IMG/VR virus record: IMGVR_UViG_2671180577_000008
Length of the DNA stretch: 4,556 bases
From: a virus
Lineage: Duplodnaviria > Heunggongvirae > Uroviricota > Caudoviricetes
Reading direction: 5' to 3' (one strand)
A program made the translations under genes and the position numbers. The notes under the pieces are model-generated. The model was given only the letters and a program-made list of their open reading frames with translations. It ran no database searches and was not told the origin of the DNA. Numbering within the stretch: the first letter of the stretch is position 1; every line of letters begins with the position of its first letter. Below are positions 1-4,556 of the stretch, one piece after another.

Positions 1-296
1 CCAGCTGTTTAATGCGCGGATCCGGAGCATCGTATGAATCCGGCAGCGGAAGCCCTTCACCGTAAGCCATGGCATTGGACTGCCCGGCCAGTACGATGAC
101 GTAGTACCAATCCGGCTCAGATGAAGGGCCGACCTGTGGCTCTCCTTCAATAGCCACCGCCTGCATCAGTGTGTACGGCGTAATGGCAACCGGTCCGCCG
201 TATGGCTGCCAGCCCTCTTTCAGTTTGTGTGTCAGCTTTTCCGCAAGGTCTGACGGCGACGCCGCCCTGATAACATCGTAATGTTTAATCGACATC
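1..296 (-). CDS. Prophage NanS-p-like sialate (9-O-acetyl-Neu5Ac) O-acetylesterase, N-terminal ~98 codons only (DUF1737-like N-terminus followed by the start of an SGNH/DUF303 esterase domain); the gene continues beyond position 1
   Basis: Minus-strand ATG at 296-294 preceded by GGAG 7 nt upstream. Translation: MSIKHYDVIRAASPSDLAEKLTHKLKEGWQPYGGPVAITPYTLMQAVAIEGEPQVGPSSEPDWYYVIVLAGQSNAMAYGEGLPLPDSYDAPDPRIKQL..., containing the GQSN(A/M)xG esterase block. Position ahead of the lysis module matches nanS-p paralogs of O157 prophages. Open frame runs to the window edge. Confidence 0.7.
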
Positions 297-381
297 GAAT
301 TTCTCCCGTGTAGAGGAACAGAGTTAAAAAGCCGGAAGCGGAATCAAATCACAGGATGACCATCTGCCAGTGGCTGGTCGT

Positions 382-408
382 AAAAAAAAGGCCGCGCCAT
401 GCGCAGCC
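382..408 (-). terminator. Rho-independent terminator (minus strand) between the moron cassette and the nanS-p-like gene
   Basis: Minus-strand RNA GGCUGCGC-AUG-GCGCGGCC: 8-bp GC-rich stem (one G-U pair), 3-nt loop, followed directly by U8 (plus-strand A8 at 382-389). No T-tract on the plus-strand side, so unidirectional. Confidence 0.6.
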
Positions 409-609
409 GAAAATAAAGGGATAACGATGATAGTTTGAGAAAAACAGAAATAACACTTTTGTGGCAAAGCATGGTGCCGGGTGCCTCCCGGTGAATTCAG
501 TATCAGCACCTGAATCCGCGATTACCCCATATTCCTTCTTGCTGATTGCCCCACCGCACAGGGGGATTCACCATGCAGAAGTGTTTTTAATAAACAGCAA
601 ACAAAAAAA

Positions 610-777
610 TCAAGCATTATGCAGGCTGTTTCTTTTTATCACCGGCCACAGCAATACCACAATGCCGCAGACCAGCACCCCATCCGCCAGCACCGACATG
701 ATTCTGCTGGTGAAATCCACCATCACCACCAGAAACAGCAGGAGTGCAGCCACAGTCAGGCGCAGTTTTACCGTCAC
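610..777 (-). CDS. Small hydrophobic protein (55 aa, two predicted transmembrane helices), translationally coupled to the upstream TerB-like gene; function unknown
   Basis: Not in the supplied ORF track as such. Minus-strand GTG at 777-775 overlaps the TerB-like stop (GTGA) with GGAG 8 nt upstream; stop TGA at 612-610. Translation: MTVKLRLTVAALLLFLVVMVDFTSRIMSVLADGVLVCGIVVLLWPVIKRNSLHNA. Alternative internal ATG at 723 (37 aa) has no usable SD. Start assignment is uncertain. Confidence 0.4.
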   Translation of the reverse strand: MTVKLRLTVAALLLFLVVMVDFTSRIMSVLADGVLVCGIVVLLWPVIKRNSLHNA

Positions 778-1206
778 AGGTAATTCTCCAGACGAAGACC
801 CAGAACACCGGCAATCTCTTCCAGCACCTTGCGCTCTTCCGGCTCAATTTCGCCGTCTGCCTCCGCAATGGCCACCGCCACATCCAGCACATCTTCCGCT
901 TCACGCGTATCGTGTTTCACATCCTCGATCTCACGTAACGCCGCACGACGACCAGTTTTAAAGTTCGTATCCAGCTGACCGATAATGGTTGCGCTAATCG
1001 CATTAATTTCTGACGTAAACGCGTACAGCGCAGGCTGATTACGCAGTACCTGTTCGATCTTCGCTTTCTAGGAAGCCTCACATTCACCATCTGCATAGGC
1101 CACCAGGTAGGCGGCGTTAATCACCACCTGTGCCAGATCGCGTTTTTCAAACTTTTTAATTTCCGTTGCCGCTCTGCGGGCTTTTTTTACCAAAAATACC
1201 AAACAT
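774..1206 (-). pseudogene. TerB-family (tellurite-resistance TerB-like) gene disrupted by a +1 frameshift in an A7 homopolymer (1182-1188) and an in-frame amber codon (TAG at 1070-1068); intact length would be ~143 aa
   Basis: ATG at 1206-1204 with AAGGAA SD 7 nt upstream. Frame A gives MFGIFGKKSPQSGNGN then stop (1158-1156). The +1 frame continues protein-like: ARRAATEIKKFEKRDLAQVVINAAYLVAYADGECEAS-TAG-KAKIEQVLRNQPALYAFTSEINAISATIIGQLDTNFKTGRRAALREIEDVKHDTREAEDVLDVAVAIAEADGEIEPEERKVLEEIAGVLGLRLENYL-stop(776-774). The repeated xADGExxxxE blocks and the C-terminal VAIAEADGEIEPEERKVLEEIAGVLGL are as recalled for the TerB fold. The other two frames are closed around both lesions. Confidence 0.6.
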
Positions 1207-1288
1207 CGTGACGTTCCTTTGGGTGGGTGAGCCAACGCCCGGGAGCGATCTGCCCACAGAGAAAGTCACACTGACCACTCCGTAAGCT

Positions 1289-1298
1289 CCCCCCCCCC
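1289..1298. repeat. Homopolymeric C10 tract (G10 on the coding strand of neighbouring genes), 83-92 nt upstream of the TerB-like start codon
   Basis: Direct read: ctcc cccccccc ga, ten consecutive C at 1289-1298, in the intergenic region between the argO-like tRNA and the TerB-like gene. Confidence 0.9.
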
Positions 1299-1341
1299 GA
1301 AAGGCTCTGTGGTTGGTATGCGCCGGGCGTGGCGCAGATAC

Positions 1342-1365
1342 AAAAAAGGCCCGCAAAAGCGAGCC
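1342..1365 (-). terminator. Rho-independent terminator immediately downstream of the tRNA cluster (minus strand)
   Basis: Minus-strand RNA GGCUCGC-UUUU-GCGGGCC (7-bp stem with one G-U pair, 4-nt loop) followed by U6 (plus-strand A6 at 1342-1347), 17 nt after the argO-like 3' end. Confidence 0.55.
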
Positions 1366-1381
1366 GGGAAAATAAGTGTAG

Positions 1382-1455
1382 CGCGTTGTACTGGAGTCGA
1401 ACCAGTGACCGATTGCTTAGAAGGCAATTGCTCTGTCCTGCTGAGCTAACAACGC
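1382..1455 (-). tRNA. argO: tRNA-Arg, anticodon UCU (reads AGA); prophage argO-type; CCA not encoded
   Basis: Minus-strand sequence GCGTTGT-TA-GCTC-AGCAGGACA-GAGC-A-ATTGC-CTTCTAA-GCAAT-CGGTC-ACTGG-TTCGACT-CCAGT-ACAACGC-G folds as a canonical 74-nt cloverleaf: 7-bp acceptor, 4-bp D stem, 5-bp anticodon stem, loop CU-UCU-AA, T-loop TTCGACT, discriminator G. Confidence 0.85.
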
Positions 1456-1468
1456 AGAATACCGATAA

Positions 1469-1544
1469 TGGACCACCACCGGGGACTCGAACCTCGCACA
1501 CTCAACTTAAAGGGTTGACGCTCTTTCCTGATGGCTAGTGGCGG
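1469..1544 (-). tRNA. argN: tRNA-like gene, argN-type by position and backbone but degenerate: anticodon loop CC-UUU-AA (UUU with C33), weakened D stem; possibly a pseudo-tRNA
   Basis: Minus-strand sequence CCGCCAC-TA-GCCA-TCAGGAAA-GAGC-G-TCAAC-CCTTTAA-GTTGA-GTGTG-CGAGG-TTCGAGT-CCCCG-GTGGTGG-T-CCA. Acceptor pairs 7/7 (one G-U), encoded CCA, T-loop TTCGAGT. Only 2 of 4 D-stem pairs form, one A-C mismatch in the T stem, C instead of the near-universal U33. Backbone aligns block-by-block with E. coli tRNA-Arg(UCU) as recalled (TAGC, AGAGC, CTTCTAA versus CCTTTAA, GGTTCGAAT versus GGTTCGAGT). Confidence 0.5.
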
Positions 1545-1545
1545 T

Positions 1546-1621
1546 TGGTGGCCCTTGCTGGATTTGAACCAGCGACCTGGCGATTATGAGTCGCTCGCTC
1601 TCACCACTGAGCTAAAGGGCC
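1546..1621 (-). tRNA. ileZ: tRNA-Ile2 (anticodon CAU, lysidine-type, reads AUA); prophage ileZ-type (tools often label it tRNA-Met); CCA encoded
   Basis: Minus-strand sequence GGCCCTT-TA-GCTC-AGTGGTGA-GAGC-G-AGCGA-CTCATAA-TCGCC-AGGTC-GCTGG-TTCAAAT-CCAGC-AAGGGCC-A-CCA, a 76-nt cloverleaf, near-identical in layout to E. coli ileX as recalled. Confidence 0.85.
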
Positions 1622-1630
1622 GGGCGCAGG

Positions 1631-1659
1631 ATAATAACGTTACGAAATCAATGTTGCAA
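1631..1659 (-). promoter_or_regulatory. Candidate sigma70 promoter for the tRNA cluster
   Basis: Minus strand TTGCAA (1659-1654), 17-bp spacer, TATTAT (1636-1631); predicted start ~7 nt downstream, within a few nt of the mature ileZ 5' end at 1621. Confidence 0.45.
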
Positions 1660-1722
1660 GCATACAAAAATCACCCTTATCTCCTCCACCAGCGCATTCA
1701 CCATGTCTATCCGAGATAAGTG

Positions 1723-1757
1723 ACACAACAAAACCCGCTTGTGGGCGGGTTTTGTTT
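1723..1757 (-). terminator. Intrinsic terminator hairpin (candidate tR'); T-rich on both sides so potentially bidirectional
   Basis: Plus 1730-1753 aaaacccgc-ttgtgg-gcgggtttt: GC core CCCGC/GCGGG extended by A/U pairs. The minus-strand RNA is followed by UUUUGUUGUGU, the plus-strand RNA by UUUUGUUUGCUUUU. Lies ~45-75 nt downstream of the candidate pR' start. Confidence 0.55.
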
Positions 1758-1798
1758 GCTTTTGCCATCACGTACAAAATCGGCAAAATATCAGATTT
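1723..1798 (-). ncRNA. Predicted short (~70-76 nt) terminated pR' leader transcript, analogous to lambda 6S RNA / the Stx-phage StxS sRNA; candidate only
   Basis: Defined only by the candidate pR' (-10 at 1810-1805, start near 1798) and the tR' hairpin ending near 1723. No coding capacity in the interval. Confidence 0.3.
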
Positions 1799-1804
1799 GC
1801 ATGA

Positions 1805-1833
1805 AATATATGCCTTTCAATCTACTTTTGCAA
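1805..1833 (-). promoter_or_regulatory. Candidate late promoter pR' (with associated Q-utilisation region), overlapping the 3' end of the Q gene
   Basis: Minus strand TTGCAA (1833-1828), 17-bp spacer, TATATT (1810-1805); immediately downstream of the Q stop codon (1819-1817) and upstream of the tR' hairpin, the expected lambdoid arrangement. Confidence 0.45.
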
Positions 1834-2506
1834 CACTTTGCTTTGAAAATGCCGCCTTTTGTTTTGAACGTGTTCTCATTACAAATAATAAAGCCTCACT
1901 ATCCAGTCGGTGAAAAATGTGTTTCATTGCAACCCAGTGACGAGTAAATGTTTTGGACCAGTTTTTAGTTGTCACTCCCGCCAGTAATGCCAGCTCCTGA
2001 TATTCATAACCTTCCCCACCAAAAAGTTCTGCTTTTACTGCCTGCGCCGCCAGCCAGATTAATTTTTTCAGGCGTTCCTGCGTTTTCCCAGCAATTTTTC
2101 TGGTACCGGATTGAGTATTAAATTCATTCCACGCCCACTGTGTTATCGCGATCTGATATTCCCAACAAATACTCCCGCTGTAACACCACAACAACCAGGC
2201 TTTATGATGTTCTTCAAGAGACAGAACAGCCCGCCGCCACGATGATGTCGAAAACTCAACCGGACTGACCAGAGGAATTGACGTCACCTTCGCCAGCGAT
2301 TGCTTTCCCGGGATTGGTGGATTATCCCGCGTTATCATTTTTCCAGTCACTTCATCGCGGTACCGGATTTTTTTTCGCCTGTAACGCCCTGTATCGAACA
2401 TGGCATTCTCCTGCCAGGCTTCAAGCTGACCTTTTGTTGCCCCACTCAAATCAGCGGTGGCGATAATGAGCTGCTCACGCACAAACTGTAAATAGTGGTT
2501 ATTCAT
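1817..2506 (-). CDS. Late-gene antitermination protein Q (229 aa), probably Q82/QuuQ-like; called from gene order, not from a recognised motif
   Basis: ORF track 1817..2512 (GTG); preferred start is ATG at 2506-2504, which overlaps the rusA stop as ATGA, with GGAG 5 nt upstream. Sits between rusA and pR'/tR'/tRNAs/late genes. Protein MNNHYLQFVREQLIIATADLSG... has no lambda-Q-type paired CxxC zinc finger, so it is not lambda-type Q. Confidence 0.6.
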   Translation of the reverse strand: MNNHYLQFVREQLIIATADLSGATKGQLEAWQENAMFDTGRYRRKKIRYRDEVTGKMITRDNPPIPGKQSLAKVTSIPLVSPVEFSTSSWRRAVLSLEEHHKAWLLWCYSGSICWEYQIAITQWAWNEFNTQSGTRKIAGKTQERLKKLIWLAAQAVKAELFGGEGYEYQELALLAGVTTKNWSKTFTRHWVAMKHIFHRLDSEALLFVMRTRSKQKAAFSKQSVAKVD

Positions 2507-2868
2507 GCGCACTCCAGTTCTGTGATTTTTATCCCCAGCCGCCCACCAGGAACGAGCTGACCGCGCACAATATTGATTTCATCAAACTGCTCGTCGTCTA
2601 TGAGAAGTCCGGCATGCGTCAGCACATCCAGTGGTGCTTTCAGGATATTGTCCAGGTCACGACGGCGCTTATCCGGTGGCTCTGCAATAATCTTTATCAC
2701 CAGCCTTCCGGACAGGTTTAATTTCAGCCGCTGCTGGCGAACAATTAGCGCCACATCACGGCGATAACTCTTTCCGGCTTCCGAGATGAAATACGTATTG
2801 CCATGACGTCGCCAGTAGGTATTCACCGTCGGCGGGTAAGGCAAAACAAATTCTATCCGTTCAGTCAT
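2503..2868 (-). CDS. rusA: RusA-family Holliday-junction resolvase (121 aa)
   Basis: Translation MTERIEFVLPYPPTVNTYWRRHGNTYFISEAGKSYRRDVALIV...AEPPDKRRRDLDNILKAPLDVLTHAGLLIDDEQFDEINIVRGQLVPGGRLGIKITELE carries the RusA signature blocks (LPxPPSxN, DRRRRDLDN, DDxQ) as recalled from DLP12 RusA. ATG at 2868 abuts the upstream stop (TGAATG). Confidence 0.85.
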   Translation of the reverse strand: MTERIEFVLPYPPTVNTYWRRHGNTYFISEAGKSYRRDVALIVRQQRLKLNLSGRLVIKIIAEPPDKRRRDLDNILKAPLDVLTHAGLLIDDEQFDEINIVRGQLVPGGRLGIKITELECA

Positions 2869-3924
2869 TCATGCTTTCCACTTCAGGACACCCGAATTTC
2901 TCGCGTGCATTAAAAAACGAATCAGCAACAACAGCTGGCTGCCGTGTTTTTCTTCAAAATCTTTTACCCCAGCGTGCAGTTCGTTATGACATTTACGGCA
3001 CAGCGGAATAACAAACAAATCATCAGCCTTTGTTCCCATCCCTCCCAGTCCATGACCAATGATGTGATGCGGATCATCTGCCTGATTACCGCACGTCATG
3101 CATTTCTGCGTTTTTACCCAGCGCGTGTATACAGGCATCTCTTCCCGTTGTGGTTTCTGGCGCTGGAGATACTGAGCCGGTGACTCCGGATCAACGGCAA
3201 TGCTGACCACCGTCTTTTCCTGTGGCGGGTTTTGCTGGTGGGCGTGAGGCAGCGGCGCAAGATTTTTTGTGCGCTGCTTCAGTATGATGGTGGCGGTCTG
3301 CTCTCCCGGTACGATGTCGCTTTCACGGTACATTGAGCGGATTTTTTCCGCACGCAACCCCAGCGAACGACGTAATACCGCTTCCGGTAGCGCGTCCGCC
3401 ACCTGATTGCGGACCGCCCACCAGGATAATTCAGCCAGAGATAATTCACGCTCCTGCGTACCGCTTATTGCGTGACCGATGACGTCAATCATCCATGCTG
3501 ACAGGTTTTGATGAGCAAGTTGCTCGAGTGATTCGGATGTCTGGTCACGCAGCTGGTTGTCGCAGTGCCAGCACAACACCATTGCGCCGGTACCATAACG
3601 GTGAATAACGGTTTCACTGTGATGATAGTCACCATGAGGCCACTGGCAGGATTTGACATGACGCAACAGCCAGTCAGACAGTGCACCAGCGCCACCAACA
3701 GCACGAATCACACGCTCATTGCTGAAAAACGGCAGTAATGATTTATCCTCCGCCAGCGGCTGGCGAACGGCAGGGACGATGCCGGACGGCAGACCGCGCA
3801 TGCTTTTCGGTTCCGGCTCCACAAGCACTCGAGGGTTATGGAATACCTGCATGGATTCACGGCCTGGTTTAAGGACCACCAACCCAAGTTCCGGTACCGG
3901 AACAGGTCGAAGTAATACCCGCAC
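2869..3924 (-). CDS. DUF968 / YdfU-family prophage protein (351 aa) with two Cys/His-rich HNH-like (putative nuclease/zinc-binding) motifs
   Basis: Long minus-strand ORF. GTG start at 3924 with GGAGG SD 4 nt upstream, 1 nt after the upstream TAA; alternative ATG at 3852. Motifs: CQWPHGDYHHSETVIHRYGTGAMVLCWHCDNQL and C-terminal CMTCGNQADDPHHIIGHGLGGMGTKADDLFVIPLCRKCHNELH. Stop TGA at 2871-2869 directly abuts the rusA ATG. Confidence 0.65.
   Translation of the reverse strand: MRVLLRPVPVPELGLVVLKPGRESMQVFHNPRVLVEPEPKSMRGLPSGIVPAVRQPLAEDKSLLPFFSNERVIRAVGGAGALSDWLLRHVKSCQWPHGDYHHSETVIHRYGTGAMVLCWHCDNQLRDQTSESLEQLAHQNLSAWMIDVIGHAISGTQERELSLAELSWWAVRNQVADALPEAVLRRSLGLRAEKIRSMYRESDIVPGEQTATIILKQRTKNLAPLPHAHQQNPPQEKTVVSIAVDPESPAQYLQRQKPQREEMPVYTRWVKTQKCMTCGNQADDPHHIIGHGLGGMGTKADDLFVIPLCRKCHNELHAGVKDFEEKHGSQLLLLIRFLMHARNSGVLKWKA
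3888..3903. repeat. Perfect 16-bp palindrome GTTCCGGTACCGGAAC inside the 5' end of the DUF968 gene (codons ~8-13)
   Basis: Direct read; the sequence equals its own reverse complement (CCGG-flanked GGTACC core) and lies 21-36 nt downstream of the GTG start. Confidence 0.9.
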
Positions 3925-3925
3925 G

Positions 3926-4204
3926 TTACCTCCAGATGCGTTGCTGGAATGTGCGGGACGGACGCGGTGGGCGCTCGGAGTACGGCAGCCTGACGTAGAT
4001 TATCCAGTGACGATAATCGAGGCTGAGGGCTTTCCTAAACTCATACCCACGTCTGCGGTAGTTCTGAATCAGCCATTCGGCCTGTTCTTCAGTGCATGGG
4101 GCGTGCCGGAACCAGTCAGATTTGAATGCATGAGAACGCCGCCCGTGCCTGCTGGCAAAGACGGCTGAATTATCAGAATTGTGTAGTCTGGAATTTTGCG
4201 CCAT
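3926..4204 (-). CDS. Hypothetical prophage nin-region protein (92 aa), basic and Arg/Trp-rich
   Basis: ATG at 4204 with GGAGA SD ~6 nt upstream; stop TAA at 3928-3926 one nt before the DUF968 GTG (coupled). Translation MAQNSRLHNSDNSAVFASRHGRRSHAFKSDWFRHAPCTEEQAEWLIQNYRRRGYEFRKALSLDYRHWIIYVRLPYSERPPRPSRTFQQRIWR. No family recognised. Confidence 0.5.
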   Translation of the reverse strand: MAQNSRLHNSDNSAVFASRHGRRSHAFKSDWFRHAPCTEEQAEWLIQNYRRRGYEFRKALSLDYRHWIIYVRLPYSERPPRPSRTFQQRIWR

Positions 4205-4273
4205 CGGCTTTCTCCGGTGGCACAGTGTTACTCAACAGGGGTTCAGCCCTGCGCTGAATTGTAGATGAATTCA

Positions 4274-4405
4274 CTAATCTTCAAAAGCAGAAAAACCAGC
4301 CTTAATCCCAGCTTCTTTCAGAGACGGCAACGATGTGACAAATTCATTTGCACGCAAAATAAAACCATCCGTCACAAGCCCATCCACAAAATGAATTAAC
4401 GCAGC
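4274..4405 (-). pseudogene. Possible 3' remnant (last 43 codons) of a prophage gene truncated by the IS629-like insertion
   Basis: Minus-strand frame open from the IS boundary (4405) to TAG at 4276-4274: AALIHFVDGLVTDGFILRANEFVTSLPSLKEAGIKAGFSAFED. The same frame continues into IS sequence only as unrelated residues. No start codon or SD in the segment; it could also be noncoding. Confidence 0.3.
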
Positions 4406-4556
4406 TGAACCGCCCCGGGAATCCTGGAGACTAAACTTCCTGAGAAAGAGGTAAACAGGATGACTAAAAATACTCGTTTTTCCCCTGAAGTCCGTCAACG
4501 GGCAGTCCGTATGGTTCTGGAAAGTCAGGGCGAATATGACTCACAATGGGCGACAA
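4406..4556 (+). mobile_element. IS629-like (IS3 family; IS629/IS1203) insertion sequence, left end only; element continues beyond the window
   Basis: Terminal TGAACCGCCCCGGGAATCCTGGAGACTAAACTTCC... begins at 4406 (IS3-family TG terminus) and is followed by the orfA start; matches the IS629 left end as recalled. Confidence 0.75.
4460..4556 (+). CDS. IS3-family transposase OrfA (IS629 orfA), N-terminal 32 codons; 3' partial
   Basis: ATG at 4460 with AGAGG/CAGGA SD upstream. Translation [32 protein letters not shown], the helix-turn-helix N-terminus recalled for IS629/IS1203 OrfA. Open to the window end. Confidence 0.8.

What the first reader, a model, noticed from the sequence alone, without database searches (positions are those of the whole stretch)
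1182..1188. TerB-like gene frameshifted at an A7 homopolymer
ATG at 1206 reads MFGIFGKK and then stops 8 codons later, while the +1 frame continues as a clean TerB-like protein. An A6 run would restore one 143-aa ORF. This is the signature of a slippage-derived 1-nt insertion, or of a homopolymer sequencing error. It could even be a switchable on/off tract.
Basis: seen in the sequence. Interest (0 to 1): 0.4.

Follow-up and report, generated by a model that had tools for sequence, protein, structure and literature searches.

The report
Twice-broken prophage TerB/TciA pseudogene
A small accessory gene (tciA, TerB family) in an E. coli lambdoid prophage is dead twice over, from an old inherited extra A in an A-run plus a downstream stop codon, so it is an ordinary pseudogene and neither a sequencing error nor an on/off switch.

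Summary
T7 at 1182-1188 is A7 on the minus strand. The ATG at 1206 reads MFGIFGKKSPQSGNGN and then stops. Intact homologues (143 aa, phage JLK-2012 TciA, PHROG 632) have A6 at this spot.

After one A is removed, the frame still holds a TAG at 1070-1068 (codon 46), where intact genes have GAG. An A6 tract would therefore not restore a 143-aa ORF.

The A7 is not a sequencing error. The exact 81-mer occurs in 554 complete E. coli genome records.

It is not a switch either. On the window's flanking haplotype the counts are A7 554, A6 4 and A8 0. On the other common haplotype they are A6 103 and A7 0. None of 30 haplotypes from about 84 gene copies mixes run lengths.

A7/GAG copies exist, and A6/TAG appears only in recombinants. 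The slip therefore came first, once, and the nonsense mutation followed.

RefSeq already flags this gene as a pseudogene ("internal stop"), starting it at a TTG in the shifted frame. The finding is ordinary and of low interest.

The parts
774..1206 (-). tciA (TerB-family moron) pseudogene, from the ancestral ATG to the TGA stop. It is 433 nt; the intact gene is 432 nt.
   Evidence: Pfam TerB at 43.9 bits. PHROG 632 full length. 94.6% nucleotide identity to phage JLK-2012 tciA. RefSeq relatives are flagged as pseudogenes.
1182..1188 (-). A7 tract (T7 on the + strand), a +1 insertion relative to the A6 of intact alleles, at codons 7-8.
   Evidence: The exact 81-mer is in 554 complete-genome records.
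1156..1206 (-). Residual ORF from the ancestral ATG: 16 codons (MFGIFGKKSPQSGNGN) plus TAA at 1158-1156.
1215..1219 (-). Shine-Dalgarno-like AAGGA, 8 nt upstream of the ATG at 1206 and 12 nt upstream of the TTG at 1202.
   Evidence: Read directly from the sequence. Conserved in L004-L006.
1200..1202 (-). TTG in the TerB frame, used by PGAP as the start. Here it gives a 44-aa product, MVFLVKKARR...ECEAS.
   Evidence: PGAP CDS 4175-4603 in L001 equals window 774-1202. The 44-aa ORF is called on 184 contigs.
1068..1070 (-). TAG nonsense codon at codon 46; intact alleles have GAG (Glu).
   Evidence: The TAG 81-mer is in 186 records; the GAG version with the same flanks is in 2.
774..920 (-). Largest leftover ORF, a 48-aa C-terminal fragment starting at a GTG.
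   Evidence: It is called as a protein on 992 contigs and corresponds to phrog_3920.
610..777 (-). tciB-like DUF3927 gene, intact. Its GTG start overlaps the tciA TGA stop (GTGA).
   Evidence: Pfam DUF3927 at 62.6 bits. phrog_1470. Same arrangement in JLK-2012.

Best explanation
This is a decayed copy of tciA, a 143-aa TerB-family accessory gene of lambdoid prophages. It sits between the Q antiterminator/tRNA block and the esterase and lysis genes. One slippage event lengthened an A6 run at codons 7-8 to A7 on one ancestral allele. Ribosomes starting at the well-placed ATG therefore stop after 16 residues. That allele was inherited and spread among prophages by descent and recombination. A GAG-to-TAG change at codon 46 later arose on the A7 background. 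With both lesions, no start codon gives a full-length TerB protein: ATG gives 16 aa, TTG gives 44 aa, and the largest leftover ORF is 48 aa. Shown here: both lesions, their stability, and their linkage to haplotype. Inferred: the order of the two events, loss of function, and late-operon expression.
For: The A7 and the 16-codon ORF are in the sequence. The TAG lies in the repaired frame. Intact 143-aa homologues have A6 or AAAAAGAAA, and GAG at codon 46. Among 97 sampled copies: A6/GAG 44, A7/TAG 34, A7/GAG 16, A6/TAG 2, and no A8 or A9. None of 30 haplotypes mixes run lengths. All A7 haplotypes share one 5' SNP haplotype, and the A6/TAG haplotype resolved there carries the V14-type 5' end joined to a window-like 3' part, which looks like a recombinant. 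In complete genomes the T14 flank gives A7 554, A6 4, A8 0, and the V14 flank gives A6 103, A7 0. The TAG 81-mer is in 186 records against 2 for GAG with the same flanks. PGAP marks the gene as a pseudogene in close relatives. The exact repaired protein of this haplotype is absent from a 15-billion-protein collection. This copy of the prophage shows other decay: a degenerate middle tRNA and an IS629 insertion.
Against: The A7 may not have been a null when it arose. An in-frame TTG 4 nt after the ATG opens a 142-aa ORF in A7/GAG alleles, which NCBI annotates as intact on hundreds of contigs, and 16 of the 50 A7 copies whose codon 46 could be read keep that ORF open. The excess of nonsynonymous private changes on A7 alleles (5N:2S against 7N:13S) is not significant (Fisher p = 0.19). 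No expression data were available.
Confidence: 0.9

Rival explanations
1. The A7 is a neutral N-terminal variant and not a disabling frameshift. Translation starts at the TTG (1202-1200) and gives a 142-aa TerB protein, MVFLVKK... instead of MFGIFGKK.... On this view the TAG is the only inactivating lesion, as the PGAP note 'internal stop' implies.
For: PGAP places the CDS start at the TTG and reports only an internal stop. A7/GAG alleles are listed as intact 142-aa proteins on 306 and 184 contigs. About a third of A7 copies keep the ORF open. Only five N-terminal residues change, and they stay hydrophobic.
Against: The ATG has a near-ideal 8-nt spacing from AAGGA, while the TTG is a weak codon at 12 nt and sits just behind a competing out-of-frame ATG (read from the sequence). 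The M-F-G-(I/F)-F N-terminus is kept in more distant homologues, including Evi, PPyecE and a Klebsiella protein. A7-private changes lean nonsynonymous and include Y37C and D117E in the EADGE motif. The outcome for this window is the same either way: no full-length protein.
Confidence: 0.25
2. The A7 is a homopolymer sequencing or assembly error, and the real genome has A6.
For: Homopolymer indels are a common error type. Two assemblies show A6 on the TAG background next to other frameshifted genes (L101 and L102), which shows that such errors do occur at this tract.
Against: The exact A7 81-mer is in 554 complete-genome records from many laboratories and in 50 of 97 sampled copies, mostly IMG/VR. 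A7 is fully linked to a specific SNP haplotype, which random error would not produce.
Confidence: 0.02
3. The A-run is a phase-variable on/off contingency tract, or a site of programmed frameshifting or transcriptional slippage that still yields TerB.
For: The tract lies early in the coding region. RNA polymerase and ribosomes are known to slip on A-runs (general knowledge: dnaX, IS3-family elements).
Against: Only lengths 6 and 7 are seen, and each is fixed on its own haplotype. Reaching the TerB frame needs a +1 shift, whereas A-run slippery sites favour -1. Intact homologues encode one ORF, some with the run broken as AAAAAGAAA, so the shift site is not conserved. In this window the TAG at codon 46 blocks any rescued frame.
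Confidence: 0.03

Closest known systems
TciA of lambdoid phages (Escherichia phage JLK-2012 gp79; PHROG 632 'tellurite resistance') and tciA of phage P1
   Same: 94.6% nucleotide identity to JLK-2012 tciA, with the same Q - tRNAs - tciA - tciB - esterase order. Full-length match to PHROG 632. Weaker DNA similarity to P1/P7 tciA/terB.
   Different: This copy carries A7 instead of A6 and TAG instead of GAG at codon 46, so it is not an intact member. The function of TciA is untested. P1 tciA is non-essential in a CRISPRi screen (PMC10695390).
TerB of the terZABCDEF tellurite-resistance operon (Pfam PF05099)
   Same: The repaired translation matches the TerB domain above Pfam's cut-off.
   Different: It is a stand-alone phage moron paired with a 55-aa DUF3927 membrane protein. 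No other ter genes are nearby.
Homopolymer contingency (phase-variable) loci of Neisseria, Haemophilus and Campylobacter
   Same: A homopolymer near the 5' end of a coding sequence whose length sets the reading frame.
   Different: There is no length polymorphism within a haplotype, the tract is short (A7), and a second inactivating mutation lies downstream.
RefSeq/PGAP pseudogene 'tellurite resistance TerB family protein, internal stop' (e.g. C6991_RS01730 in NZ_CP027555.1)
   Same: The same locus at 99.8% identity, with the same A7 and TAG.
   Different: PGAP starts the CDS at the TTG and so does not report the frameshift relative to the 143-aa ancestral form.

Membership tests
TerB domain family (Pfam PF05099) | Sequence match to the TerB profile above the gathering score | tested here: met
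   43.9 bits against a cut-off of 24.4, residues 31-138 of the repaired conceptual translation.
Phage TciA (PHROG 632) | Full-length alignment to the 143-position family profile | tested here: met
   1-143/143, E 1.2e-68.
Phage TciA (PHROG 632) | Uninterrupted ORF encoding the protein | tested here: not met
   A +1 frameshift at codons 7-8 and a TAG at codon 46. It is a pseudogene of the family, not a functional member.
Phage TciA (PHROG 632) | Partner gene tciB immediately downstream, with overlapping stop and start | tested here: met
   DUF3927/phrog_1470 ORF at 610-777 with a GTGA overlap. Same layout in JLK-2012.
Phase-variable contingency locus | Tract length varies among otherwise identical or closely related sequences | tested here: not met
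   0 of 30 haplotypes are mixed. T14 flank: A7 554, A6 4, A8 0. V14 flank: A6 103, A7 0.
Phase-variable contingency locus | One tract length restores a full-length ORF | tested here: not met
   The A6 version of this allele still has the TAG at codon 46.
Programmed frameshift / transcriptional slippage gene | Shift site and two-frame layout conserved among homologues | tested here: not met
   Intact homologues are single ORFs, and some break the run as AAAAAGAAA.
Programmed frameshift / transcriptional slippage gene | Detectable frame-corrected mRNA or protein | not testable with these tools
   This needs cDNA deep sequencing or a tagged-protein blot.
Sequencing artefact | Variant absent from independent assemblies | tested here: not met
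   The exact A7 81-mer is in 554 complete-genome records.

The most novel reading that the evidence does not exclude
The A7 allele may not be a simple null. It could be a translational down-tuning variant, giving a TTG-initiated 142-aa TerB or rare slippage-corrected transcripts. It could also be a null whose spread across many EHEC prophage types was favoured by selection: it is present in 554 of the 680 records that hold any copy. In this window the TAG would then be the later, final inactivation.
Probability: 0.15. Interest if true: 0.3.

Novelty: already known. Interest (0 to 1): 0.1.

Why it matters
It matters little biologically. It is one more decaying accessory gene in a mosaic, partly defective EHEC prophage, and RefSeq already flags it as a pseudogene.

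There is a modest point for annotation. PGAP's choice of a TTG start hides an old frameshift, so hundreds of A7/GAG alleles are listed as intact 142-aa TerB proteins. Leftover 44-aa and 48-aa fragments also populate protein databases, and the 48-aa fragment matches the whole of a 48-position PHROG family (phrog_3920).

The case also shows that a single frameshift at a homopolymer should not be called a switch before checking downstream lesions and the variation of tract length across a population.

Tried and rejected
- **PADLOC:** no credible defence-system match for TciA or TciB.
- **Literature:** searches on TciA, TerB and prophages gave only annotation-level mentions and the P1 non-essentiality result. 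I found no functional study of the lambdoid tciA.
- **Relaxed selection:** the test on A7 alleles (private changes 5N:2S against 7N:13S) gave p = 0.19, which is not significant.
- **Amber suppression:** I checked whether an adjacent phage tRNA could read the TAG. The anticodons are tct, ttt and cat, with no CUA, and the middle tRNA fails the Rfam tRNA threshold.
- **Source strain:** O55:H7 DEC5E is the only full-coverage match, but its IS element sits at a different position, so the window is not from that assembly.
- **A8 query:** no exact match.
- **A6 on the window's flank:** 4 records were in the exact-match band and I inspected 3. One (L100) is annotated as an intact 143-aa gene in a different prophage. 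The other two (L101, L102) carry the TAG and lie next to other frameshifted genes, so they are probably assembly errors.

Full report
**Context**

The window is the late-regulatory region of an E. coli lambdoid prophage, with the genes on the minus strand. In order they are:
- a 92-aa hypothetical gene (3926-4204);
- DUF968 (2869-3924);
- RusA (2503-2868);
- antiterminator Q (1817-2512);
- three tRNA-like genes (1381-1621);
- the TerB-like gene (774-1206);
- a DUF3927 gene (610-777);
- the start of a DUF1737/SASA esterase (2-295).

An IS629-type element begins at about 4406/4407. Close relatives are chromosomal prophages of EHEC-type strains, 99.6-99.8% identical over window 1-4406.

**Checking the observation**

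The + strand has T7 at 1182-1188. On the minus strand, the ATG at 1206 reads MFGIFGKKSPQSGNGN and stops at TAA 1158-1156. The adjacent frame carries a TerB-family sequence (Pfam PF05099, 43.9 bits; PHROG 632 'tellurite resistance', 1-143/143, E 1e-68).

I aligned the gene with the intact 432-nt genes of phage JLK-2012 (annotated tciA), phage Evi and PPyecE_EH1910. The only indel is in this run. JLK-2012 has GGT AAA AAA GCC (A6), and the other two have AAAAAGAAA, all read from the same ATG. The +1 insertion is therefore real.

The statement that A6 would restore one 143-aa ORF is wrong. The repaired frame contains a TAG at 1070-1068, codon 46, where all three intact homologues have GAG. The gene carries two lesions.

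**Is it a sequencing error?**

No. The exact 81-mer around the A7 (window 1146-1226) occurs in 554 complete-genome records. A7 is also present in 50 of 97 gene copies, most of them retrieved from IMG/VR with a pattern that allowed A6 to A9. The TAG 81-mer is in 186 records.

**Is it a switch?**

No.
- With the window's flanks, the counts are A7 554, A6 4 and A8 0.
- With the other common flank (Val14 haplotype), the counts are A6 103 and A7 0.
- Among about 84 full-length copies that fall into 30 haplotypes, with the run and the first base of codon 46 masked, none mixes run lengths or codon-46 states.
- All A7 haplotypes share one 5' SNP haplotype.
- I inspected three of the four A6-on-T14 records. 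One (an 86-24 derivative, L100) is annotated as an intact 143-aa gene in another prophage. The other two (L101, L102) keep the TAG and sit beside other frameshifted genes, which points to homopolymer assembly errors.
- A7/GAG alleles are common (16 of 97). The A6/TAG haplotype that could be resolved joins a Val14-type 5' end to a window-like 3' part.

The simplest history is one A6-to-A7 slip, spread by descent and recombination among prophages, followed by a GAG-to-TAG change on that background.

**Consequence in this window**

The ATG has an AAGGA 8 nt upstream and yields 16 residues. A TTG at 1202-1200 in the TerB frame yields 44 residues. The largest remaining ORF is a 48-aa C-terminal fragment (774-920). 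No start codon gives a full-length protein.

The downstream tciB-like gene (DUF3927) is intact. Its GTG start overlaps the tciA stop (GTGA), and a GGAG lies 8 nt upstream of it, so it may still be translated. That last point is an inference.

**What databases say**

PGAP marks the gene as a pseudogene with an 'internal stop' only, because it starts the CDS at the TTG, which maps to window 1202. NCBI lists A7/GAG alleles as intact 142-aa proteins beginning MVFLVKK, on 306 and 184 contigs.

Whether that form is actually made is open. Three things argue against it:
- the TTG is a weak start codon with poor spacing from AAGGA, and an out-of-frame ATG lies just before it;
- the MFG(I/F)F N-terminus is conserved in more distant homologues;
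- private changes on A7 alleles lean nonsynonymous (5N:2S against 7N:13S), although the difference is not significant (p = 0.19).

**Function of the family**

[quoted passage not shown] P1 tciA was non-essential in a CRISPRi screen (PMC10695390). PHROGs classes it as a moron, and PADLOC finds nothing.

The gene lies downstream of Q, of a promoter-like site where pR' would be expected (1833-1805), and of a terminator-like hairpin (1365-1348). Expression with the late operon is a reasonable inference, but I did not test it.

**Verdict**

This is a real, stably inherited frameshift plus a nonsense mutation in a known phage accessory gene. It is already flagged as a pseudogene in RefSeq and is of low interest.

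Noticed in passing
window 1289-1298 (+ strand C10; G10 on the minus strand), about 83-92 nt upstream of the tciA ATG: Unlike the A7, this homopolymer really does vary. It is 9, 10 and 11 in three near-identical chromosomes and 6-12 across the fetched loci; other haplotypes have G5TG or G6. It could be a hypermutable leader or promoter tract, or assembly noise.
   Followed up: partly
window 1469-1544 (-): ARAGORN calls the middle tRNA Lys(ttt). It fails the Rfam tRNA gathering score, and PGAP leaves it unannotated in relatives. Alignment shows a diverged copy of the tRNA-Arg (TCG) found at this position in an 86-24 prophage, so it is probably a pseudo-tRNA.
   Followed up: partly
window 433-605 (-): Rfam match to the sRNA STnc100 (RF02076, 100.8 bits against a gathering score of 47), between tciB and the esterase gene.
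   Followed up: no
window about 4406-4556 (+), and the ORF remnant 4274-4406 (-): An IS629-type element begins here; its OrfA starts [16 protein letters not shown] at 4459. Homology to relatives ends at 4406. The insertion interrupts a hypothetical gene that is intact in relatives (L001 7675-7935).
   Followed up: partly
protein databases; window 774-920 (-) and 1071-1202 (-): The 48-aa and 44-aa leftovers of the broken gene are called as proteins on 992 and 184 contigs. The 48-aa fragment matches the whole of phrog_3920, which is 48 positions long. A7/GAG alleles are annotated as intact 142-aa proteins starting at a TTG.
   Followed up: partly
L101 (NZ_CP157165.1) and L102 (NZ_AP042673.1): These two assemblies show A6 on the TAG background. 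Their neighbouring esterase genes are also flagged as frameshifted, which suggests homopolymer assembly errors in those records.
   Followed up: no
window 1833-1805 (-), 1659-1631 (-), 1365-1348 (-): Promoter-like sites lie just after Q, where pR' would be expected, and just before the first tRNA. A terminator-like hairpin lies between the last tRNA and tciA.
   Followed up: no
window 2368-2375 (T8 on the + strand; A8 on the minus strand, inside Q): This homopolymer is longer than the one flagged and lies inside the intact Q antiterminator ORF, without any frameshift.
   Followed up: no
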